From a phage, in sequence record OZ335962.1: DNA of 64,000 bases. The stretch is one strand, 5' to 3'. This document shows, piece by piece, positions 4,685 to 40,697 of this stretch. The position numbers and the translations under genes are program-made. Under the pieces are notes generated by a model, which was not told the DNA's origin, searched no databases, and saw nothing but the letters and a program-made list of their open reading frames with translations. Each line of letters opens with the position of its first letter. The stretch's first letter is position 1.

Positions 4685-4993
4685 TTATTTACCAATAAAT
4701 TGAAGCAAATGCTCAGCTTTCATACCATTAACGGAAATCAATTTGTCAATAGAAAAACCTCGCCATGCACCGAGTTCAACATCAAATACTGGAACCATAT
4801 CAGTAGATTCTTTCCGAGCAGATTCAGTCAATTTACCAGTTTGCATGGTTGGCATAAAGTCCGCATCACGAGTGCCTTTCATAGTACGAATAGTACCATC
4901 AGACTTTTCAAAAACTACGTTTGAAACCCCCATGGACAATTTAGTTTTCAAAATTTCACGAATTGCTACTTTTTGTTCAGTCGTCAGTTTCAT
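4685..4993 (-). CDS. hypothetical protein (position of T4 31.1)
   Basis: 102-aa ORF. Confidence 0.5.
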   Translation of the reverse strand: MKLTTEQKVAIREILKTKLSMGVSNVVFEKSDGTIRTMKGTRDADFMPTMQTGKLTESARKESTDMVPVFDVELGAWRGFSIDKLISVNGMKAEHLLQFIGK

Positions 4994-5230
4994 TTATTTA
5001 CCTATTACAGTTTTATGATAAATTGTTCCACGTTCTTTAAGAGTGGAAAGTAATTTTTGATATTTTTCTAAATCAGATTTCCAACTATGCGGTCTATCAA
5101 TACAAACCCAGTTTGATTTATAATACTGTTTCCACCTAGAGAAAAAATATTTCTTATACTCTACAGCAAATGAAATGTTCTCGGTAGAATAAGAACTAAT
5201 TGCTGTGAGCTGTACCAAACGAAATTTCAT
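4994..5230 (-). CDS. hypothetical protein (position of T4 31.2)
   Basis: 78-aa ORF; stop abuts the cd stop/start region. Confidence 0.45.
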   Translation of the reverse strand: MKFRLVQLTAISSYSTENISFAVEYKKYFFSRWKQYYKSNWVCIDRPHSWKSDLEKYQKLLSTLKERGTIYHKTVIGK

Positions 5231-35001: not shown

Positions 35002-35637
35002 TCACAGTTCAGATGCTACGGTGATTACTGCTTCAATGTTTTCTGCCGAGCGTTTAATGTCAAGATACACATTGCCGTTTTTAGCGATTTTACATGACAT
35101 TCCAATATCAGTAAATTTCTGAATATGGTGTTCCATCATTTTGTATCCAAAAATTCGCATATTTCCATTGTTATTAATTTCAAAATTACGAATTCCGTGA
35201 GTGCGTTTTTCTAAAATAGCAAGATAGTTACTGCGGTAAGTTTCAACCTTTTTAAGAACAAATCCATTTTCATCTAAAAGTTTTAACATGAAGTCTTTAT
35301 CTTCTTCCATATCGGAAGTAATCTCGCGAGCTTTACGAGTTGCTCGTTTTTTCAGTAGTTCAGGAGCATTTTCCTGCGCGTATAAAGTTGCTGCATTTGA
35401 AATAATATCCTGAGCTTCGCCTGTAATGATTAATCCATCACCAGATTTCTCCACCAGGCCTTTTTTAATCAATACCCCAATATTACTATTAACTACTGCG
35501 TTACCTAAATCTGGATGCACCTCACGAACTTCTGCGGCTGTAATGAAATCTTTCTTAGCAATGGTAATTAAAATCGCAGCAGTTTTTTCATTCAGAACAT
35601 CGTTAGAAGCTTTGATGATGTAAGTTACTTTAGACAT
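35002..35637 (-). CDS. motA: MotA middle-transcription activator
   Basis: 211 aa, same length as T4 MotA; positioned before gene 52. Confidence 0.85.
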   Translation of the reverse strand: MSKVTYIIKASNDVLNEKTAAILITIAKKDFITAAEVREVHPDLGNAVVNSNIGVLIKKGLVEKSGDGLIITGEAQDIISNAATLYAQENAPELLKKRATRKAREITSDMEEDKDFMLKLLDENGFVLKKVETYRSNYLAILEKRTHGIRNFEINNNGNMRIFGYKMMEHHIQKFTDIGMSCKIAKNGNVYLDIKRSAENIEAVITVASEL

Positions 35638-35674
35638 TTTAATCTCCGTTTCAGTTCATTTATTTGATAGGTCT

Positions 35675-35703
35675 ATAGTATCATGTTTAAAGCAGAAGTA
35701 AAC
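35675..35703 (-). promoter_or_regulatory. early promoter for motA
   Basis: Minus strand GTTTAC, 17 nt, TACTAT. Confidence 0.55.
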
Positions 35704-35742
35704 ACTTTTTTGCACTCTTTTTCAAGAGCTCTAATAAAGTAC

Positions 35743-35970
35743 TTACTTAATGTTCAGATTACGAACTTCGATTTCGTCTTCATGGGCAAAATCAAACTGT
35801 TTGAATTCTGTGTCACCTTTAAATTTAAAAATCATTGTGAAGAAAGTCAGAACACCGGGTTTTTCTTCACGAACTCCACAGATATCATATTCAATACCAT
35901 CTACAACCAGTTTGTTAGCAGTCAGAGCATTTTTAGCTTTAACGATTTCGTTTTCGATTTTAAATTTCAT
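35743..35970 (-). CDS. hypothetical early protein
   Basis: 75-aa ORF with its own promoter. Confidence 0.45.
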   Translation of the reverse strand: MKFKIENEIVKAKNALTANKLVVDGIEYDICGVREEKPGVLTFFTMIFKFKGDTEFKQFDFAHEDEIEVRNLNIK

Positions 35971-36018
35971 TTTTTGTATCTCCGGGTTGTTTGTTTCAGT
36001 TCATTTATTTGATAGTTG

Positions 36019-36048
36019 TATAGTACCATAAAGCTTTATGCTTGTAAA
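36019..36048 (-). promoter_or_regulatory. early promoter; copy 2 of the repeated promoter module
   Basis: Minus strand GTTTACAAGCATAAAGCTTTATGGTACTAT; the spacer contains a perfect 14-bp palindrome. Confidence 0.55.
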
Positions 36049-36071
36049 CCGTTTTGTGAAAAAATTTTGAA

Positions 36072-36102
36072 ATAAAAAAAAGGGAGAGCCTCGGCTCTCC
36101 CT
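36072..36102 (-). terminator. rho-independent terminator
   Basis: Minus strand GGGAGAGCC-GAG-GCUCUCCC followed by a U8 run. Confidence 0.7.
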
Positions 36103-36106
36103 AAAA

Positions 36107-36256
36107 TTACTGCATGACTGTGATAACTGTCATGATAACACGTTGAATTCCGAACGCAAGAAGACCTCCTGCTACGGCAGGAACAACACCTAAACCCGCC
36201 AGTAAAATGCCACCAGATACTAATGCAGCGCTTGTAATACCTATGAATGGACTCAT
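36107..36256 (-). CDS. small hydrophobic membrane protein (49 aa)
   Basis: MSPFIGITSAALVSGGILLAGLGVVPAVAGGLLAFGIQRVIMTVITVMQ; its ATG overlaps the gp52 TGA. Below the ORF-track size cutoff. Confidence 0.45.
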   Translation of the reverse strand: MSPFIGITSAALVSGGILLAGLGVVPAVAGGLLAFGIQRVIMTVITVMQ

Positions 36257-37581
36257 TTGATTTCCTCTAAATCTTTGGTGTATTCTGTAACTACATCAGT
36301 AGTTTTCCAATATTCGTTTTCTTCTTTTTTAGCTTTAGCTTCTTCAGCAAGTTTCTTTGCTTCGTCGGAAGTCATATGAAAAATATTCATTCCAACTAGT
36401 TTATCAACATAAGAAGAATACATATCAATTTTAGAAAGTTCTTCGGTCAGTTCTTTGCGAGTTTTACCCTGCACAACAATTTCATCTGAAATTACTTTCT
36501 TAATGAAATGCGCCTTGGCAAAGGCTAAACGAAATGCTGATTCAGTTTCTTTGATTTTGTTATCAATTCGTTTTTGGACATAAGTTTTACGAACTTCAAC
36601 GAAGTCTTTGATTAAATCAACTACGTTATCGTAAACTTGTAGTTTTCCTTTCTCATTAATAACGGTAATATTCTGGGAACGACGCTCAATCAACCCGAAG
36701 TCTTTCATAATTTTTGCATGGCGTTCTTCTTCGTTATCGCTCAAAGAGTATTCTTTACGGAATTTAACTTTAAAGCCAAACCCGTGCTCACCACAAGCAT
36801 CATCCCACATAATGAAGCCTTTATCTTCAAGCGGGTCTAAGATTTTACTCACATAAGTTTCACGATCATACTTATACGGAATCTCAGTGATATTCATTTG
36901 AGTTCGTGAAGTAAACTTGTACGTTCCACGAATTTCATATTGACCGTCAATTTCAACGACTTCACCGCGAAATTCTGGAAATTCTACCTTCGGTTTAGTT
37001 ACTTTCTTTCCTTGAAGAGCTTGCAATACAGCTTTCTTGACAGAAGAAACACTATGAGGAAGAATATAAGTTGCATAACCAGTTGCAATACCGGAAACAC
37101 CATTAAGAAGAACAGTAGGAATAATAGGCAAATAGAAAGCAGGCGGAATGTGTTCTTTATCTTGATGTACCGGAGCATATTCAGTATCTTTATATACGCT
37201 ATAGAAATTTTTACTTACACGAGCAAAAATATAACGACTTGCCGCTGCTTTTTGAACGGTACGAGAACCAAAGTTTCCTTGACCATCTAACAGAGGAAAG
37301 TTATTATTCCAAGTATTAGCCATCAAAGCACCTGCGTCTTGTGCAGAGTTTTCACCATGATGATATCCAAGGTCTGCTACACCACCTGCAATAGAAGCGA
37401 GTTTGTGAAACTTATCTTTATTTCCTCGTGCCAAATCAAGAGCTCGAGCAATAACAAATCGTTGAACTGGCTTAAATCCATCAATCATATTTGGGATAGC
37501 ACGATTTTCAACCGTGTACATAGCATAAGCCAATGCTTCATTATCAATGATACTTTTTAAATCGCGATTATTCAGTTGCAT
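36253..37581 (-). CDS. 52: gp52 topoisomerase II medium subunit (GyrA-like)
   Basis: 442 aa, same length as T4 gp52; N-terminal GyrA-like DNA breakage-reunion region. Confidence 0.9.
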   Translation of the reverse strand: MQLNNRDLKSIIDNEALAYAMYTVENRAIPNMIDGFKPVQRFVIARALDLARGNKDKFHKLASIAGGVADLGYHHGENSAQDAGALMANTWNNNFPLLDGQGNFGSRTVQKAAASRYIFARVSKNFYSVYKDTEYAPVHQDKEHIPPAFYLPIIPTVLLNGVSGIATGYATYILPHSVSSVKKAVLQALQGKKVTKPKVEFPEFRGEVVEIDGQYEIRGTYKFTSRTQMNITEIPYKYDRETYVSKILDPLEDKGFIMWDDACGEHGFGFKVKFRKEYSLSDNEEERHAKIMKDFGLIERRSQNITVINEKGKLQVYDNVVDLIKDFVEVRKTYVQKRIDNKIKETESAFRLAFAKAHFIKKVISDEIVVQGKTRKELTEELSKIDMYSSYVDKLVGMNIFHMTSDEAKKLAEEAKAKKEENEYWKTTDVVTEYTKDLEEIK

Positions 37582-37585
37582 AAAT

Positions 37586-37726
37586 TTACCATACTAGTGA
37601 ATGTAGTGCCATAATAACATCAGAAATGAAAAGCACGACTTGAATTAATCCGAACATTACTCCATAATATAGTGCTACCAATAAAGTAGCAAGGGCTAAT
37701 GAATAGCCCAAGATTTTCTTAATCAT
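37586..37726 (-). CDS. small hydrophobic peptide (46 aa)
   Basis: MIKKILGYSLALATLLVALYYGVMFGLIQVVLFISDVIMALHSLVW; overlaps the upstream small ORF. No clear SD. Confidence 0.35.
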   Translation of the reverse strand: MIKKILGYSLALATLLVALYYGVMFGLIQVVLFISDVIMALHSLVW

Positions 37727-37877
37727 TAGTAGATAACAACACAAATGTTAAATATGCACACATACCCTGGGCTAAAGCTTGTGAAAACACACTGCTAGCA
37801 TCGATACAGATAGTTAAAACACATGCTACTATCCAACAAATAAATGAAATAACTCCTAATAATTTTGCGATATTCAT
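37719..37877 (-). CDS. small membrane protein (52 aa), paralog of the next gene
   Basis: MNIAKLLGVISFICWIVACVLTICIDASSVFSQALAQGMCAYLTFVLLSTND; SD GAGGAG. Confidence 0.5.
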   Translation of the reverse strand: MNIAKLLGVISFICWIVACVLTICIDASSVFSQALAQGMCAYLTFVLLSTND

Positions 37878-37887
37878 AATATTCTCC

Positions 37888-38043
37888 TCAACTATTTTTA
37901 GAACCAATGTACGCGAATAATGATAAAATCGCTAATACGCCCTGAGCTGATGCTTGCAAAAATACTGAAGTTTCTCCAGTTATTACTGTTCCGATGCATA
38001 AAAAGAACCAACAGAAAAAGGTTATACCGTGAACAAATTTCAT
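37888..38043 (-). CDS. small membrane protein (51 aa), paralog of the previous gene (T4 ac/52.1 position)
   Basis: MKFVHGITFFCWFFLCIGTVITGETSVFLQASAQGVLAILSLFAYIGSKNS; SD GAGGAAAA. Confidence 0.5.
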   Translation of the reverse strand: MKFVHGITFFCWFFLCIGTVITGETSVFLQASAQGVLAILSLFAYIGSKNS

Positions 38044-38050
38044 ATTTTCC

Positions 38051-38131
38051 TCACTGGCGTCCGAAGACGCCTTTAGTTTTAAGATTGTTACGATAGAACT
38101 GCATCACGTGTTCGTTATGGAAATTACTCAT
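38051..38131 (-). CDS. stp: Stp peptide (26 aa)
   Basis: Translates [26 protein letters not shown], the T4 Stp sequence as I recall it; TAATG overlap with the ndd stop. Confidence 0.8.
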
Positions 38132-38586
38132 TAGTATGCCTGCAAAACAAATTTAAAGTTATCAGCCAACATACGGTTCATTTCTTCAAGCGTTTGATAC
38201 TCAGAATGATGATTACGAGTAAACGCTAAAGCTAACTGGCCTTTTCCAAATCCAGTCGTTAGAGGTTTCATCTTAGAAGCAGGCAAATAAAATACTGTGT
38301 ATGGAACATTGTTATTTGTAATAGTACGCGCAAGCTGAGACCGACGTTGACGAATATGACTTAGAACTGCACTGAACCCTTGCTTAGAACGCTGATTACC
38401 TACATAAAATCGCGCAGATACACATGGACTATCAAATGGACCACCAAATTTGCTCACTAAAAAGTAAAATCCGGGTTTAGACAAAATGTCTTTATGTGGA
38501 GTTCCAAAAACCCATTCACCGCCCTTGATTGTACCAATAACAGTTGCGCCTGCATTATTCAGATCAGTAACAGTCATGTATTTCAT
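38131..38586 (-). CDS. ndd: Ndd nucleoid-disruption protein
   Basis: 151 aa from [25 protein letters not shown]; SD GAGGAAA. The track's 16-codon extension was trimmed. Confidence 0.85.
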
Positions 38587-38646
38587 ATTAATTTCCTCTA
38601 AATTATTTTCTACTCCAAGGCCGCATGAATACACACGGCCGATAAA

Positions 38647-38862
38647 TTAATCGTCGCAGTCGACGCTCAATTCCCAAAACTCTTCTACGGTATATGTTTC
38701 AGTATCATTTTCAATACAGAAACGTTTATTACTGTTGTTTTCTAAAGTAGCGTTAACTGTCATTTTCTCGCTAGTGCTCTTAAGAGGTGAAATACGAATT
38801 AACTGATCACCATTATCTAAACAAAAAATTTCACCAACTTTTACATCTTTAAAAATTTTCAT
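38647..38862 (-). CDS. hypothetical early protein
   Basis: 71-aa ORF. Confidence 0.45.
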   Translation of the reverse strand: MKIFKDVKVGEIFCLDNGDQLIRISPLKSTSEKMTVNATLENNSNKRFCIENDTETYTVEEFWELSVDCDD

Positions 38863-38977
38863 AATTCACCTCAAGGAGTATAAAATCCGAATGCAGTTGT
38901 TGACCATCCCATCCAATACGGAAAATTTGCACCGACGTAAAACATGAGAATATAAAACCAACCACTCAATAAATTCA

Positions 38978-39175
38978 TCATTTTACACCATTCCAAATTG
39001 TTTCAACCACAGATTTTAAGCCATTTTGATGAATGTCCATTCCGACAACTGCCATCAAATAAATTCCAACTACAACTGAACCTAAGGCGAAAATCAGCAT
39101 GAAAATGAATAAAGCCGGAAAAATATTATCAAAAAACCATTCAACAAATGTAAAAGCACTGCGTTTACGCTTCAT
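38978..39175 (-). CDS. small membrane protein (65 aa)
   Basis: MKRKRSAFTFVEWFFDNIFPALFIFMLIFALG...; SD GAGGAAAA. The track start is a TTG. Confidence 0.45.
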   Translation of the reverse strand: MKRKRSAFTFVEWFFDNIFPALFIFMLIFALGSVVVGIYLMAVVGMDIHQNGLKSVVETIWNGVK

Positions 39176-39182
39176 ATTTTCC

Positions 39183-39296
39183 TCACATAAATCCAAAGTA
39201 AGCGTTTAATACATCAATCATTAAAACGATTGGGAATATACTCAAAACTACTAGTATTATAACTACATTCCATATAGCTTTAACAATCTTTTTCAT
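39183..39296 (-). CDS. small membrane peptide (37 aa)
   Basis: MKKIVKAIWNVVIILVVLSIFPIVLMIDVLNAYFGFM; SD GGAGGAACAG. An early promoter lies inside the track's longer ORF. Confidence 0.45.
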   Translation of the reverse strand: MKKIVKAIWNVVIILVVLSIFPIVLMIDVLNAYFGFM

Positions 39297-39323
39297 TTTC
39301 TGTTCCTCCGTAGTTGATAGGGT

Positions 39324-39356
39324 AATAGTACCACAGAGGAACAGTCTTGTAAACCA
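39324..39356 (-). promoter_or_regulatory. early promoter
   Basis: Minus strand GTTTAC, 18 nt, TACTAT; flanked by a 9-bp inverted repeat CTGTTCCTC/GAGGAACAG. Confidence 0.5.
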
Positions 39357-39539
39357 CTTTTTTAAAAATATTCGTAATAAATGTGAATACCAATCACCAC
39401 TGCCGAAACTTGCGCAACCCACCATGCACAAGCAATAAGTACAGAATTCAAAATTTTCATAATAACCTCATTACAAAAGTAAATGTTAAACAAATTAATG
39501 GAATACTAATTAACCAAACGAAACACCACCATAATGAAC

Positions 39540-39803
39540 TCATAGTTCAATCTCAACGATTTTCATTTCATTACTATTAATAGCCGCTTTAAGACTATCT
39601 GAAAGAATTACACACCAGTGGTCATTCATATGACCATTAACTAAACGTGTAATTTCTTCAGGAGTTGAAAAATAAGGCGTATCAGACTCCCAATGCGATA
39701 GTCCCAAGCGAGTATAAATCATACCTTCATCATCGCTATAATATTCAACTGACACAAACTCATCAGTTATTTTATGTTTAGCGTAATAAAATTTAAATTT
39801 CAT
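39540..39803 (-). CDS. hypothetical early protein (87 aa)
   Basis: From MKFKFYYAKHK with SD GGAGGAG, downstream of the promoter at 39811..39840. Confidence 0.45.
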   Translation of the reverse strand: MKFKFYYAKHKITDEFVSVEYYSDDEGMIYTRLGLSHWESDTPYFSTPEEITRLVNGHMNDHWCVILSDSLKAAINSNEMKIVEIEL

Positions 39804-39810
39804 TTTTACT

Positions 39811-39840
39811 CCTCCGTAGCTGATAGTTGTATAGTACCAC
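39811..39840 (-). promoter_or_regulatory. early promoter; copy 3 of the repeated promoter module
   Basis: Minus strand GTTTACATACCACAAGGACTGTGGTACTAT. Confidence 0.55.
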
Positions 39841-39877
39841 AGTCCTTGTGGTATGTAAACCGTTTTGTGAAAAATTT

Positions 39878-40435
39878 TTAAATGGAAAGATACCATCCAT
39901 TGTAGTTGCTTTTTCTTACAACCTTACGAAGGTCTTCTCTGTCACCGATGAACTTCGGAGTGTACTGGATGACACCTGGATGAATTTCTTTAGTGTTGAA
40001 TATAATTATACAGTCAGCGACCTGATGATTCAGAATGGGCCCTAGATTTATTCCAGAACCGTATGGATACTCTCCGCTGCATCCGGTTGTTACCGAAATC
40101 CAACGTGAGTCAGTTTGATGTGTTTTGACTTCTACACGAAGCCCGCAGTATCTTGGATGCGCCAATACATCCCATGCATATGTATACGGGTCATTAACAT
40201 CCTCTTGCCCTTTGTTAACATAGCCGCTTAGCCAATCTGCTACAAAAAATTCTGCGTACACCGCGATACGACATCTTTCAATAACTTCTGCTTTATCCTG
40301 GTTCGGGTTTTGTTTTAAAGAGTATCTTGCTGTATCAGCAATTTTGACCTTCATTTCACTAGTCAAGTCACTGTTCGATAGGGTAAATGTCGGAATCTGA
40401 AATAGTCTCTGTAAACCCGGATTCGTTTTCTGCAT
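39878..40435 (-). CDS. denB: endonuclease IV
   Basis: 185 aa, same length as T4 DenB; position between ndd and rIIB. Confidence 0.8.
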   Translation of the reverse strand: MQKTNPGLQRLFQIPTFTLSNSDLTSEMKVKIADTARYSLKQNPNQDKAEVIERCRIAVYAEFFVADWLSGYVNKGQEDVNDPYTYAWDVLAHPRYCGLRVEVKTHQTDSRWISVTTGCSGEYPYGSGINLGPILNHQVADCIIIFNTKEIHPGVIQYTPKFIGDREDLRKVVRKSNYNGWYLSI

Positions 40436-40697
40436 TTAGACTTTCCTTTTTACCGCTGAGATAAGCGTTATATACTTTAAGAGTGCCGTAATAAATTCGG
40501 TCATTTTCATCTAAAGACTTATGGTCAAGTTCATCGAGTTCCTTTTTATCCATGACTATAACATCATTACAGTAAAGAAACCCAAGTTTTTCGTGACCAA
40601 ACTCAAATTTATTGCAGTACACAATATTAGCGTGATGATTTCCGTGCAGTTTAATCTCTTTTATGTCGGAATCACCTATATTCATACAATAAATCAT
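40368..40697 (-). CDS. hypothetical early protein
   Basis: 109-aa ORF overlapping the denB start by about 68 nt. Confidence 0.4.
   Translation of the reverse strand: MIYCMNIGDSDIKEIKLHGNHHANIVYCNKFEFGHEKLGFLYCNDVIVMDKKELDELDHKSLDENDRIYYGTLKVYNAYLSGKKESLNAENESGFTETISDSDIYPIEQ

What the first reader, a model, noticed from the sequence alone, without database searches (positions are those of the whole stretch)
37586..39543. Chain of translationally coupled 28-52 aa membrane peptides, including a tandem paralog pair, mostly missing from the ORF track
Between denB and gene 52 I find at least six tiny hydrophobic ORFs with SD sequences or ATGA/TAATG coupling: 37586..37726 (46 aa), 37719..37877 (52 aa), 37888..38043 (51 aa), 39183..39296 (37 aa), 39362..39460 (32 aa, MKILNSVLIACAWWVAQVSAVVIGIHIYYEYF) and 39457..39543 (28 aa, MSSLWWCFVWLISIPLICLTFTFVMRLL); a seventh, 36107..36256 (49 aa), lies just downstream of gene 52. 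The 52- and 51-aa proteins are clear paralogs (ISFICWIVACVL...SSVFSQALAQG vs ITFFCWFFLCIG...TSVFLQASAQG). Such single-TM micro-proteins in phages often act on host membrane transporters, lysis timing or superinfection exclusion and are usually unannotated.
Basis: partly seen in the sequence, partly recalled or inferred. Interest (0 to 1): 0.5.

Follow-up and report, generated by a model that had tools for sequence, protein, structure and literature searches.

The report
Known T4 small membrane genes; duplicated ac
The tiny hydrophobic reading frames are real but already catalogued early genes of T4-type phages (motA.1, 52.1, ac, ndd.4, ndd.5, ndd.6), and the "paralog pair" is two old, divergent versions of the acridine-sensitivity gene ac sitting side by side, an arrangement seen in about 50 sequenced relatives.

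Summary
The window is a Tequatrovirus (T4-like) genome. Each is a gene annotated in the T4 reference: motA.1, 52.1, ac, ndd.4, ndd.5 and ndd.6. The seventh (37888-38043) is a second Ac-family gene that T4 lacks, but relatives such as Aplg8 annotate it as a second "acridine resistance protein". The frames are conserved full length in hundreds of phages. They are under purifying selection (pooled dN/dS 0.16, against 0.8-1.8 in shifted frames), and their T4 counterparts are transcribed early. The two Ac copies share 43% of residues, while synonymous sites are saturated and DNA identity is only 55%. So this is protein-level homology, not a DNA repeat. It is also not a recent duplication. The copy next to 52.1 is the T4 type; the copy next to stp is the RB32/RB69 type, which occurs alone in other phages and genera. 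The tandem junction is found in 51 records, and T6/T2-like phages carry a deletion scar of it fused to stp. AlphaFold2 predicts a two-helix membrane hairpin with a conserved SVFxQAxAQG core. That core includes the glycine whose mutation inactivates T4 Ac. Function beyond acridine sensitisation (efflux-pump blockade has been proposed) is untested. The finding is ordinary and already known.

The parts
36081..36102 (-). Intrinsic terminator closing the transcription unit just after motA.1
   Evidence: 9-bp stem with 6 GC pairs followed by a T-run. Annotated as a terminator at the same place in Aplg8 and wV7.
36107..36256 (-). motA.1 (49 aa), a Gly-rich hydrophobic small protein. Its start overlaps the gene 52 stop by 4 nt (gap -4).
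   Evidence: 98% identical to T4 MotA.1. phrog_3487, E=7e-31. dN/dS 0.17.
36253..37581 (-). Gene 52, DNA topoisomerase II medium subunit (context only)
   Evidence: ORF of 442 aa. Annotated as gene 52 in T4 and relatives.
37586..37726 (-). Gene 52.1 (46 aa), a predicted membrane protein. Its start overlaps the end of ac by 8 nt.
   Evidence: Pfam DUF7396 (PF24129), 81.9 bits against a cut-off of 27. phrog_3595. 98% identical to T4 gp52.1; 54-72% in Jiaodavirus and Mosigvirus. dN/dS 0.30.
37719..37877 (-). ac, T4-type ('A-type') Ac protein, 52 aa. Ortholog of T4 Ac, with the extra Thr near the C-terminus as in phage PP01.
   Evidence: 96% identical to T4 Ac and 100% to PP01 Ac. phrog_2501, E=3.7e-25. 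dN/dS 0.10.
37888..38043 (-). Second Ac-family gene ('ac2', B-type, RB32/RB69-like), 51 aa. Absent from T4.
   Evidence: phrog_2501, E=3.5e-25. 69-84% identical to the single Ac of RB32, RB68 and wV7. Annotated 'acridine resistance protein' in Aplg8. AF2 helical hairpin, pLDDT 86. dN/dS 0.48 among B-type genes.
37878..37887 (-). ac2/ac1 spacer carrying the Shine-Dalgarno sequence for ac1 (TGA-GGAGAATATT-ATG). Together with the last 18 nt of ac2, it is the stretch retained as a deletion scar in T6-like phages.
   Evidence: Sequence. The 31-nt string GGTTCTAAAAATAGTTGAGGAGAATATTATG is identical in phage Paracelsus, where it is fused to stp.
38051..38131 (-). stp (26 aa), the soluble peptide that inhibits type Ic restriction and activates PrrC. 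Not a membrane peptide. Contains a C(UUCG)G hairpin at 38056-38071.
   Evidence: 100% identical to T4 Stp. phrog_6763. Hairpin folds at -13.6 kcal/mol in a 56-nt context.
38131..38586 (-). ndd, nucleoid disruption protein (151 aa; context only)
   Evidence: 95% identical to T4 Ndd. dN/dS 0.09.
38647..38862 (-). ndd.1 (71 aa, soluble; context only)
   Evidence: 94% identical to T4 Ndd.1.
38871..38981 (-). ndd.2 (36 aa), an aromatic-rich small protein. Its start overlaps the stop of ndd.2a/3 by 4 nt (gap -4).
   Evidence: phrog_4135, E=5e-24. dN/dS 0.10. 4-nt overlap.
38978..39175 (-). Intact 65-aa gene that corresponds to T4 ndd.2a plus ndd.3; one strong TM segment.
   Evidence: Pfam DUF7248 (PF23906), 71.8 bits against a cut-off of 27. 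phrog_2401. dN/dS 0.07. T4 differs by a 1-nt deletion after codon 2.
39183..39296 (-). ndd.4 (37 aa), single-TM peptide
   Evidence: phrog_3098, E=3e-21. Full length in 596 phage records, down to 56-61% identity in Mosigvirus and Enterobacter phages. dN/dS is uninformative: no synonymous differences among the 7 genomes compared.
39325..39353 (-). T4-type early promoter (TTTACA-17-TACTAT, extended -10 TG) that drives ndd.4 and downstream genes. Lies inside a 62-nt repeated cassette (39315-39376).
   Evidence: Matches the PST/T4 PeSL promoter consensus TTTACW-N17-TAYWAT (PMC4122927).
39362..39460 (-). ndd.5 (32 aa), single-TM peptide. Its start overlaps the ndd.6 stop by 4 nt (gap -4).
   Evidence: phrog_5011, E=4e-26. 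dN/dS 0.08.
39457..39543 (-). ndd.6 (28 aa), single-TM peptide. Its start overlaps the orfX stop by 4 nt (gap -4).
   Evidence: phrog_8851, E=3e-17. Full length in 594 records, including Mosigvirus at 54%. dN/dS 0.14.
39540..39803 (-). orfX (87 aa, soluble). A variable cassette gene absent from T4 and the first gene of the orfX-ndd.6-ndd.5 unit.
   Evidence: phrog_2390, E=1e-44. Present in SsoM113, Aplg8, RB68, wV7 and HX01 but not in T4 or RB32.
39831..39859 (-). T4-type early promoter upstream of orfX, inside the repeated cassette 39821-39882

Best explanation
What it is. This is the gene 52-to-denB early region of a T4-like (Tequatrovirus) phage, which lies in a known hyperplastic part of T-even genomes. 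All are real genes for small membrane proteins. At least two early promoters (39859-39831 and 39353-39325) drive them, and transcription ends at the terminator after motA.1. Translation is tightly packed, through overlapping start/stop codons or 4-10-nt spacers.

The Ac pair. It is not a recent duplication. It consists of two old, divergent Ac lineages. The A-type is T4 Ac and lies next to 52.1. The B-type is the form that occurs alone in RB32, RB68, wV7, Mosigvirus and Jiaodavirus, and lies next to stp. I infer that unequal recombination within the conserved stp...52.1 frame stacked the two in tandem.

How Ac works. Each Ac is predicted to be a roughly 50-aa two-helix hairpin in the inner membrane. 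I infer that both termini are cytoplasmic and the acidic loop is periplasmic. A conserved polar stripe, SVFxQAxAQG, starts helix 2. Published work shows that T4 Ac makes infected or Ac-expressing cells hypersensitive to acridines. The proposed but unproven mechanism is that Ac binds in the membrane and blocks the AcrAB-TolC efflux pump.

Inference for ac2. ac2 keeps the whole conserved core, so it most likely does the same kind of job. Carrying both versions may cover a second variant or target. The other peptides have no known function.
For: Identity of the region:
- The 4-kb region is 95-98% identical to hundreds of Tequatrovirus genomes.
- It maps gene for gene onto the T4 annotation and onto Aplg8 and vB_SsoM_113.

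The ORFs are real genes:
- Every ORF hits a PHROG family. 52.1 hits Pfam DUF7396 and ndd.2a/3 hits DUF7248.
- Pooled dN/dS is 0.16 in frame, against 0.81 and 1.79 out of frame.
- ndd.4 and ndd.6 are intact in about 595 records, including other genera.
- In T4 these genes are classed as early transcripts (PMC9697503 Table S2).

Transcription signals: three TTTACA-17-TACTAT promoters and a strong terminator. The promoters sit in a 62-nt repeated cassette that matches the published PST/T4 PeSL consensus.

The Ac pair:
- 43% amino-acid identity, E=5e-10; 55% nucleotide identity; pS 0.67, pN 0.39.
- B-type Ac occurs as a single copy at the same slot in RB32, RB68, wV7, HX01 and Kpn6N.
- A-type Ac is found in 460 records. 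The tandem junction is found in 51.
- A T6-type scar, with ac2's last 18 nt plus the spacer fused in frame to stp, is found in 32 records.
- REP4 has a different tandem whose junction keeps remnants of the 52.1 5' end and the stp 3' end.

Structure and core:
- AF2 gives helix 2-22, loop 23-26 and helix 27-50, pLDDT 86.
- W12, T19, V27, Q30, Q34 and G35 are invariant across 26 family members.
- G35 aligns with T4 Ac G38, whose G38R change gives acriflavine resistance (bioRxiv 10.1101/2025.06.30.662393).

Function of Ac: the same preprint covers the acridine phenotype, and both it and PMC13250531 state the AcrAB-TolC hypothesis.
Against: - There is no direct evidence that any of these peptides is translated, except the genetics of ac. 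The T4 proteome study detected none of MotA.1, 52.1, Ac, Stp or Ndd.2-Ndd.6. That is expected for tiny hydrophobic proteins, but it is still a gap.
- The AcrAB-TolC mechanism rests on one preprint with no binding data. The older literature proposed increased uptake instead.
- ac2 itself has never been tested.
- dN/dS for B-type Ac is comparatively high (0.48). ndd.4 gave no synonymous differences in my small sample, so selection on it is shown only by long-range conservation.
- G35 is not invariant in the most distant family members (F or A in P0029-P0031).
- The unequal-recombination origin of the window's own junction rests on short SD-like similarity. Only the REP4 junction and the T6 scar are clear-cut.
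- dN/dS values come from pooled pairwise counts over at most 11 genomes, so the pairs are not independent.
Confidence: 0.85

Rival explanations
1. The pair arose by a recent tandem duplication of ac within this phage lineage, followed by rapid divergence of one copy.
For: The two genes are adjacent, similar in length and preceded by similar TGAGGA(A/G)AAT..ATGAA junctions. B-type genes show a raised dN/dS of 0.48.
Against: - Synonymous sites between the copies are saturated (pS 0.67, dS ~1.7), while the flanking stp and 52.1 are 91-100% identical among the same phages.
- The B-type occurs alone, at the same position, in RB32, RB68 and wV7, and in other genera (Mosigvirus HX01, Jiaodavirus Kpn6N).
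- So both lineages predate the tandem.
Confidence: 0.07
2. ac2 (and perhaps some ndd.x frames) is a decaying relic or a chance hydrophobic ORF in AT-rich DNA, not a functional gene.
For: - T4 and about 360 other records do without ac2.
- T6-like phages have deleted it.
- The saDelta9 deletion, which removes 52.1 to denB, is viable in T4 (PMC6071114).
- The proteins were not detected by MS.
Against: - ac2 is intact at 96-100% identity in about 50 records.
- It keeps all six family-invariant residues.
- It has its own Shine-Dalgarno sequence.
- dN/dS is below 1, and far below the shifted-frame controls.
- The ndd.x frames are conserved full length across genera.
Confidence: 0.05
3. Ac-family proteins act by increasing membrane permeability or uptake of cationic dyes (the classical Silver model), or on another inner-membrane target, rather than by blocking AcrAB-TolC. 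On this view the two copies are simply additive in dose.
For: Early work, summarised in the preprint, attributed the phenotype to greater acridine uptake. No Ac-AcrB interaction has been demonstrated. No sequence or fold similarity to AcrZ or any solved protein was found.
Against: Ac expression also sensitised cells to ampicillin, which the authors read as efflux impairment. This is indirect.
Confidence: 0.35
4. These micro-proteins function in lysis timing or superinfection exclusion.
For: T4 does use small membrane proteins for these roles (Imm, Sp, RI, RIII; general knowledge). The genes here are early and membrane-directed.
Against: No similarity to Imm, Sp, RI, RIII or holin families in the Pfam or PHROG scans. 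The papers read here report no lysis or exclusion phenotype for this region. The saDelta9 phenotype they describe is loss of stimulated phosphatidylglycerol synthesis.
Confidence: 0.05

Closest known systems
T4 Ac (gene ac, NP_049877; phrog_2501; Pfam PF26944 as listed for homologues)
   Same: Window ORF 37719-37877 is its ortholog: 96% identical, same position overlapping the 52.1 start, and it carries the PP01-type extra Thr. ORF 37888-38043 belongs to the same family, with the same length, the same predicted two-helix hairpin and the same SVFxQAxAQG core, including the Gly that aligns with G38.
   Different: ac2 is only 41-43% identical to T4 Ac and has a TGET loop where T4 Ac has IDAS. T4 has one copy; this phage has two.
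RB32/RB68/wV7 and RB69-group (Mosigvirus) Ac: the 'B-type' single-copy allele
   Same: ac2 is 69-84% identical to these proteins and follows stp with the same TGAGGAAAATATG junction.
   Different: In those phages the B-type gene ends in ...KND and overlaps the 52.1 start. Here it ends in ...GSKNS and is followed by a new spacer and the A-type gene.
T4 genes motA.1, 52.1 (DUF7396), ndd.2, ndd.2a/ndd.3 (DUF7248), ndd.4, ndd.5, ndd.6
   Same: Same order, same overlaps and 92-100% protein identity.
   Different: The window has the intact 65-aa ndd.2a/3 gene, whereas the T4 reference carries a 1-nt deletion that splits it. The window also has an extra 87-aa gene (phrog_2390) between denB and ndd.6.
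PeSL-flanked hyperplastic regions of T4-like phages (Arbiol 2010; Comeau 2014, PMC4122927)
   Same: Repeated early-promoter cassettes with the PST/T4 consensus flank the variable genes. The published example of PeSL-mediated exchange is this very ndd.4/ndd.5 region in T4 versus PST.
   Different: The ac slot itself is not flanked by PeSLs. The rearrangements there use the conserved stp 3' end and 52.1 5' end, or short SD-like repeats.
E. coli AcrZ (49-aa small-protein partner of AcrB): a functional analogy only
   Same: A roughly 50-aa inner-membrane protein proposed to act on the AcrAB-TolC pump.
   Different: No sequence or fold similarity was detected. From general knowledge, AcrZ is a single bent helix that enhances export of some substrates, whereas Ac is a predicted hairpin proposed to inhibit. 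No binding evidence exists for Ac.

Membership tests
Ac family (T4 acridine-sensitivity protein; phrog_2501) | Significant match to the family profile | tested here: met
   ac1 E=3.7e-25 and ac2 E=3.5e-25, both full length, on phrog_2501. A profile of the family finds only T4-like phage proteins: 27 clusters and 10 representatives among 1.84 billion proteins.
Ac family (T4 acridine-sensitivity protein; phrog_2501) | Pfam PF26944 domain | tested here: inconclusive
   The local Pfam-A copy returned no hit for either copy. PF26944.1 is nevertheless listed as a precomputed domain on many homologues, including A-type and B-type clusters. The model is probably newer than the local library.
Ac family (T4 acridine-sensitivity protein; phrog_2501) | About 47-52 aa, with two hydrophobic helices joined by a short acidic loop | tested here: met
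   AF2 on ac2 with a 26-sequence alignment: helices 2-22 and 27-50, pLDDT 86.4. Hydropathy. The preprint reports the same for T4 Ac by ESMFold.
Ac family (T4 acridine-sensitivity protein; phrog_2501) | Conserved core W...T...SVFxQAxAQG, including the Gly equivalent to T4 G38 (G38R is resistant) | tested here: met
   W12, T19, V27, Q30, Q34 and G35 are invariant in 26 sequences and present in both window copies. The G38R phenotype comes from bioRxiv 10.1101/2025.06.30.662393.
Ac family (T4 acridine-sensitivity protein; phrog_2501) | Genomic position between stp/ndd and 52.1-gene 52 | tested here: met
   Both copies lie in that interval.
Ac family (T4 acridine-sensitivity protein; phrog_2501) | A functional copy makes infection sensitive to acridines | not testable with these tools
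   Needs phage genetics. ac1 is 100% identical to PP01 Ac, which the preprint reports as acriflavine-sensitive. ac2 has not been tested anywhere I could find.
gp52.1 / DUF7396 (PF24129) | Pfam match above the gathering score, and a position immediately upstream of gene 52 | tested here: met
   81.9 bits against a cut-off of 27, covering 1-46 of 46. There is a 4-nt gap to the gene 52 start.
T4 Ndd.4 / Ndd.5 / Ndd.6 / MotA.1 families (phrog_3098, 5011, 8851, 3487) | Full-length profile match and synteny with T4 | tested here: met
   E-values 3e-21, 4e-26, 3e-17 and 7e-31. Same order as T4p273-275 and T4p263.
AcrZ-like small-protein partners of AcrB (a works-like comparison, not claimed membership) | Sequence or fold similarity to AcrZ | tested here: not met
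   No AcrZ or other relevant Pfam hit at E<=1. Foldseek against the PDB gave nothing below E=9.7.
AcrZ-like small-protein partners of AcrB (a works-like comparison, not claimed membership) | Physical binding to AcrB in the membrane | not testable with these tools
   Needs co-purification, a two-hybrid assay or a multimer prediction. The structure tool here folds single chains only.
PeSL (promoter-early stem-loop) cassettes of T4-like hyperplastic regions | Early promoter matching TTTACW-N17-TAYWAT within a repeated cassette next to variable genes | tested here: met
   Three TTTACA-17-TACTAT sites lie in a 62-nt repeat family with 68-82% identity. Consensus from PMC4122927. orfX, downstream of one site, is variable among relatives.
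PeSL (promoter-early stem-loop) cassettes of T4-like hyperplastic regions | Associated stem-loop or terminator element of the composite motif | not tested
   I did not fold the cassettes. Only the site at 36048-36020 lies next to a clear terminator (36102-36081).

The most novel reading that the evidence does not exclude
The interval between stp and 52.1 may be a swap-and-stack slot for alternative ~50-aa hairpin membrane proteins: Ac A-type, Ac B-type, phrog_9347 in REP4 and phrog_5941 in Jiaodavirus. Each would be tuned to a different host inner-membrane target or allele, for example different RND efflux pumps. The slot would evolve under an arms race, as suggested by 77-83% nucleotide identity inside it against 91-100% in its flanks. 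Phages that carry two copies would then gain host range, or resistance to host chemical defence.
Probability: 0.15. Interest if true: 0.45.

Novelty: already known. Interest (0 to 1): 0.15.

Why it matters
It matters little as a discovery. These are named T4 genes in PHROG families, two of them also in Pfam families, and the double ac is already annotated in several GenBank records.

There is modest value in three points:
1. The analysis separates Ac into two old lineages and shows that they can be stacked. The lineage studied in T4 is the derived one, while the B-type is the widespread form. This bears on current work testing whether Ac blocks AcrAB-TolC, and on the reported sensitivity of T4-like phages to DNA-intercalating compounds.
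2. It explains one of the known polymorphic Stp C-termini (the T6/T2 type) as a deletion scar from ac2.
3. It flags that many deposited T4-like genomes omit 52.1, stp, ndd.6 or the second ac.

Tried and rejected
- IMG/VR scan for ac2 relatives gave one weak, unrelated locus. That collection was no use for Tequatrovirus, so I used the GenBank phage collection instead.
- Pfam scan: no family for ac1, ac2, motA.1, ndd.2 or ndd.4-6 in the local copy. Only DUF7396 and DUF7248 matched.
- Foldseek of the ac2 model against the PDB gave nothing significant. A two-helix hairpin is too simple to be informative.
- Rfam scan of 35600-40600 on both strands gave only a sub-threshold CrcZ match over the terminator hairpin. 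I treat it as chance, so no known RNA gene competes with the ORFs.
- Literature searches for ribosome profiling of T4 small proteins and for a published description of the double ac found nothing relevant.
- I considered a DNA-level repeat and rejected it: 55% nucleotide identity, and no repeat family covers the two genes.
- I considered a recent duplication and rejected it (see rival explanations).
- The exhaustive profile search found no bacterial or distant non-phage relatives.
- The junction count (410 records) cannot be read directly as 'T4-type'. In tandem genomes the tool joins the stp piece and the ac1 piece into one place. I therefore subtracted the 51 tandem records, and the resulting figure of about 359 is approximate.

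Full report
**1. Where we are.**
The 4-kb stretch 35900-39900 matches 739 phage records by megablast. Of these, 483 cover at least 80% of it, mostly at 90-98% identity, and nearly all are Tequatrovirus phages of Escherichia, Shigella and Yersinia. All genes lie on the minus strand.

Laying the window against the annotated T4 reference, Aplg8 and vB_SsoM_113 gives this gene order:
- denB (39878-40435)
- an extra 87-aa gene I call orfX (39540-39803)
- ndd.6 (39457-39543)
- ndd.5 (39362-39460)
- ndd.4 (39183-39296)
- a fused ndd.2a/ndd.3 (38978-39175)
- ndd.2 (38871-38981)
- ndd.1 (38647-38862)
- ndd (38131-38586)
- stp (38051-38131)
- a second ac-like gene (37888-38043)
- ac (37719-37877)
- 52.1 (37586-37726)
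- gene 52 (36253-37581)
- motA.1 (36107-36256)
- a strong terminator (36102-36081)

**2. The observation.**

They are strongly hydrophobic. The best 19-residue Kyte-Doolittle window scores 2.0-3.05, against -0.85 to 0.66 for the soluble neighbours.

The packing is as described, with two kinds of junction:
- Overlaps: 4 nt at four junctions (gap -4, consistent with ATGA), 1 nt at ndd/stp, and 8 nt at ac/52.1.
- Short spacers of 4-10 nt elsewhere, several of them carrying GAGG-type Shine-Dalgarno motifs.

The chain is interrupted, however. Gaps of 74 nt before orfX and 65 nt before ndd.4 hold T4-type early promoters (TTTACA-17-TACTAT with an extended -10). A third such promoter follows the terminator. 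These three sites sit in a 62-nt repeated cassette. They match the TTTACW-N17-TAYWAT consensus published for PeSL elements of the PST/T4 pair. That paper's own worked example of cassette exchange is the ndd.4/ndd.5 region (PMC4122927).

"Missing from the ORF track" simply reflects lengths below 60 aa.

**3. Are they real genes?**
- All hit PHROG families over their full length, with E-values from 3e-17 to 7e-31.
- 52.1 is Pfam DUF7396 and ndd.2a/3 is DUF7248, both far above the gathering score.
- Across up to 11 Tequatrovirus genomes, Nei-Gojobori dN/dS values are motA.1 0.17, 52.1 0.30, ac 0.10, ndd.2 0.10, ndd.2a/3 0.07, ndd.5 0.08 and ndd.6 0.14.
- Pooled, the small membrane ORFs give 0.16 in frame, against 0.81 and 1.79 in the two shifted frames.
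- ndd.4 had no synonymous differences in my sample, so it is uninformative by this test. Its frame is nonetheless uninterrupted in 596 records, down to 56-61% identity in Mosigvirus and Enterobacter phages. ndd.6 is intact in 594 records.
- In T4, the transcripts of all these genes are classed as early. None of the small hydrophobic products was detected by shotgun proteomics, whereas Ndd and Ndd.1 were (PMC9697503 Table S2).
- Only ac has genetic proof of a product.

**4. The paralog pair.**
The two proteins align at 43% identity over 40 residues, E=5e-10. They hit the same PHROG family with equal scores. At the DNA level they are about 55% identical. Synonymous sites are saturated (pS 0.67, dS ~1.7) while pN is 0.39.

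The pair is not a recent duplication:
- The copy next to 52.1 is T4 Ac. It is 96% identical to T4 and 100% identical to PP01, including the extra Thr.
- The copy next to stp belongs to a second lineage. This lineage is the only Ac in RB32 (whose annotators noted "more similar to RB69"), RB68 and wV7. It is also the only Ac in Mosigvirus HX01 and Jiaodavirus Kpn6N, at the same position.
- I call these the A-type and B-type. P0028 looks like an intermediate between them.

Counts in the 50,697-record phage collection (RefSeq/GenBank duplicates included):

| Class | Records | Source |
|---|---|---|
| A-type Ac at >=80% identity | 460 | |
| Tandem B+A junction fully covered | 51 | |
| T6-type junction | 32 | |
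| T4-type stp-to-A junction | about 359 (410 minus the tandem records, which the tool joins) | |
| B-like Ac at 60-90% identity | 44 | |

**5. How the arrangements relate.**
I aligned the stp-52.1 interval of ten phages.
- T6, T2 and Paracelsus carry only A-type ac. Their stp ends with ...GSKNS-TGA-GGAGAATATT-ATG.
- In Paracelsus this 31-nt stretch is identical to the end of ac2 plus the ac2/ac1 spacer of the window.
- IGSKN is native to B-type Ac (RB68 and P0003 end in CIGSKND). The T6-type Stp tail is therefore a deletion scar of a former tandem, fused in frame to stp after about residue 18-24.
- This fits the published finding that only the N-terminal 18 residues of Stp are critical and conserved, while the tail is polymorphic (PMC3014915).
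- REP4 shows a different tandem. An unrelated 53-aa hydrophobic gene (phrog_9347) is followed by a B/A-like Ac. The junction retains an 18-nt remnant of the 52.1 5' end and a remnant of the stp 3' end. That is the signature of unequal crossover between genomes carrying different alleles in the same frame.
- For the window's own junction, the evidence is weaker. AGTTGAGGAGAAT resembles CAGTGAGGAAAAT, but this is mostly Shine-Dalgarno sequence. That origin is an inference.
- The slot is a local divergence hot spot. B-type genes are 77-83% identical in DNA between phages whose flanking stp and 52.1 are 91-100% identical. The B-type dN/dS of 0.48 is the highest in the region.

**6. Structure and likely mechanism.**
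A profile of the family finds only 27 clusters among 5.8 billion proteins and 10 representatives among 1.84 billion. Those that carry a source name are T4-like phage proteins or phage sequence in bacterial assemblies, and no distinct non-phage relative appeared.

Six positions are invariant in 26 sequences: W12, T19, V27, Q30, Q34 and G35 in ac2 numbering. The core reads (G/D)(E/A)(T/S)SVFxQAxAQG.

AlphaFold2 on that alignment predicts two helices (2-22 and 27-50) joined by the TGET loop, with mean pLDDT 86. By the positive-inside rule (K2 and K49 against E24), I infer that both termini are cytoplasmic and the acidic loop is periplasmic.

G35 aligns with T4 Ac G38, and G38R makes T4 acriflavine-resistant (bioRxiv 10.1101/2025.06.30.662393). 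The same preprint reports two further points:
- Plasmid-expressed Ac sensitises E. coli to acriflavine and ampicillin.
- The authors propose that Ac blocks AcrAB-TolC. A 2026 PNAS paper repeats this as an assumption.

No binding has been shown, and the classical alternative is increased uptake. ac2 keeps the entire conserved core, so I infer that it acts in the same way. Whether it is redundant, additive or directed at another target is unknown.

The remaining peptides have no known function. The only regional phenotype I found is that the T4 saDelta9 deletion (52.1 to denB) abolishes the phage-induced stimulation of phosphatidylglycerol synthesis and halves the burst (PMC6071114).

**7. Comparison and novelty.**
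Six of the seven ORFs are named genes of the T4 reference. The seventh is a member of the known Ac family and is already labelled "acridine resistance protein" in Aplg8, PST, ESh33 and others. The region is a documented hyperplastic, PeSL-bearing part of T-even genomes.

Three things are possibly not in print. My literature searches found no description of them:
- the A-type/B-type split of Ac
- the count of tandem genomes
- the ac2-derived scar in T6/T2-type Stp

These are small refinements.

**Verdict:** The finding is already known and of low interest (0.15).

Noticed in passing
L010 (T6), L011 (T2) and L012 (Paracelsus), stp-ac junction; compare window 37878-37905: T6/T2-type Stp (27-28 aa, tail ...NFGILGSKNS) ends with 18 nt identical to the 3' end of the window's ac2, followed by the same spacer. 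It is a deletion scar showing that these phages descend from a tandem ac2-ac1 ancestor. About 32 records share this junction.
   Followed up: partly
L011 (T2, NC_054931), ac region: The T2 reference carries a TCA-to-TAA nonsense change at codon 11 of ac (annotated ac is only 42 nt). It also has an extra A in the stp tail that shortens Stp to 27 aa. This T2 stock is therefore an ac mutant.
   Followed up: partly
window 38978-39175 versus L003 (T4) 4933-5129: T4 'ndd.2a' and 'ndd.3' are two pieces of one 65-aa gene (DUF7248) that is intact in the window and in most relatives. The T4 reference has a 1-nt deletion right after codon 2, so its ndd.3 is an out-of-frame reading.
   Followed up: yes
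L013 (REP4) 1016-1177; L008 (Kpn6N) 2455-2610: Other phages hold unrelated ~51-53-aa hydrophobic genes (phrog_9347, phrog_5941) in the same interval, just upstream of their Ac gene. In REP4 the junction keeps remnants of the 52.1 start and the stp end, which indicates unequal crossover.
   Followed up: partly
window 36010-36071, 39315-39376, 39821-39882 (also 35648-35684): A 62-nt repeated early-promoter cassette (68-82% identity). It contains TTTACA-17-TACTAT and matches the published PeSL promoter consensus for the PST/T4 pair. One copy precedes the variable gene orfX.
   Followed up: partly
window 39540-39803 (-): An 87-aa soluble ORF (phrog_2390) between denB and ndd.6. It is absent from T4 and RB32 and present in RB68, wV7, Aplg8 and HX01. 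Its stop overlaps the ndd.6 start by 4 nt. It is not annotated in Aplg8. dN/dS 0.14.
   Followed up: partly
window 38056-38071 (-): A GGCGUC-UUCG-GACGCC tetraloop hairpin lies inside the 3' end of stp, just before the ac2 Shine-Dalgarno sequence (-13.6 kcal/mol in a 56-nt context, z=-2.2). It is present in T4-type stp and lost in T6-type stp. It may act as an mRNA stability or processing element.
   Followed up: partly
P0023 (81 aa) and P0019 (59 aa): On some contigs a frameshifted stp reads through into ac, giving a predicted Stp-Ac fusion ([34 protein letters not shown]...). One such fragment is filed under Enterococcus faecalis, which probably reflects phage contamination of that assembly.
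   Followed up: no
L001 (vB_SsoM_113), L002 (Aplg8), L005 (RB32), L010 (T6): Annotation of this region is inconsistent among deposited genomes. vB_SsoM_113 omits 52.1, ac2, stp and ndd.6; Aplg8 and RB32 omit ndd.6. T6 omits stp, ac and 52.1 and carries product names that look wrong for these small genes ('chaperone for long tail fiber formation', 'naphthalene 1,2-dioxygenase').
   Followed up: no
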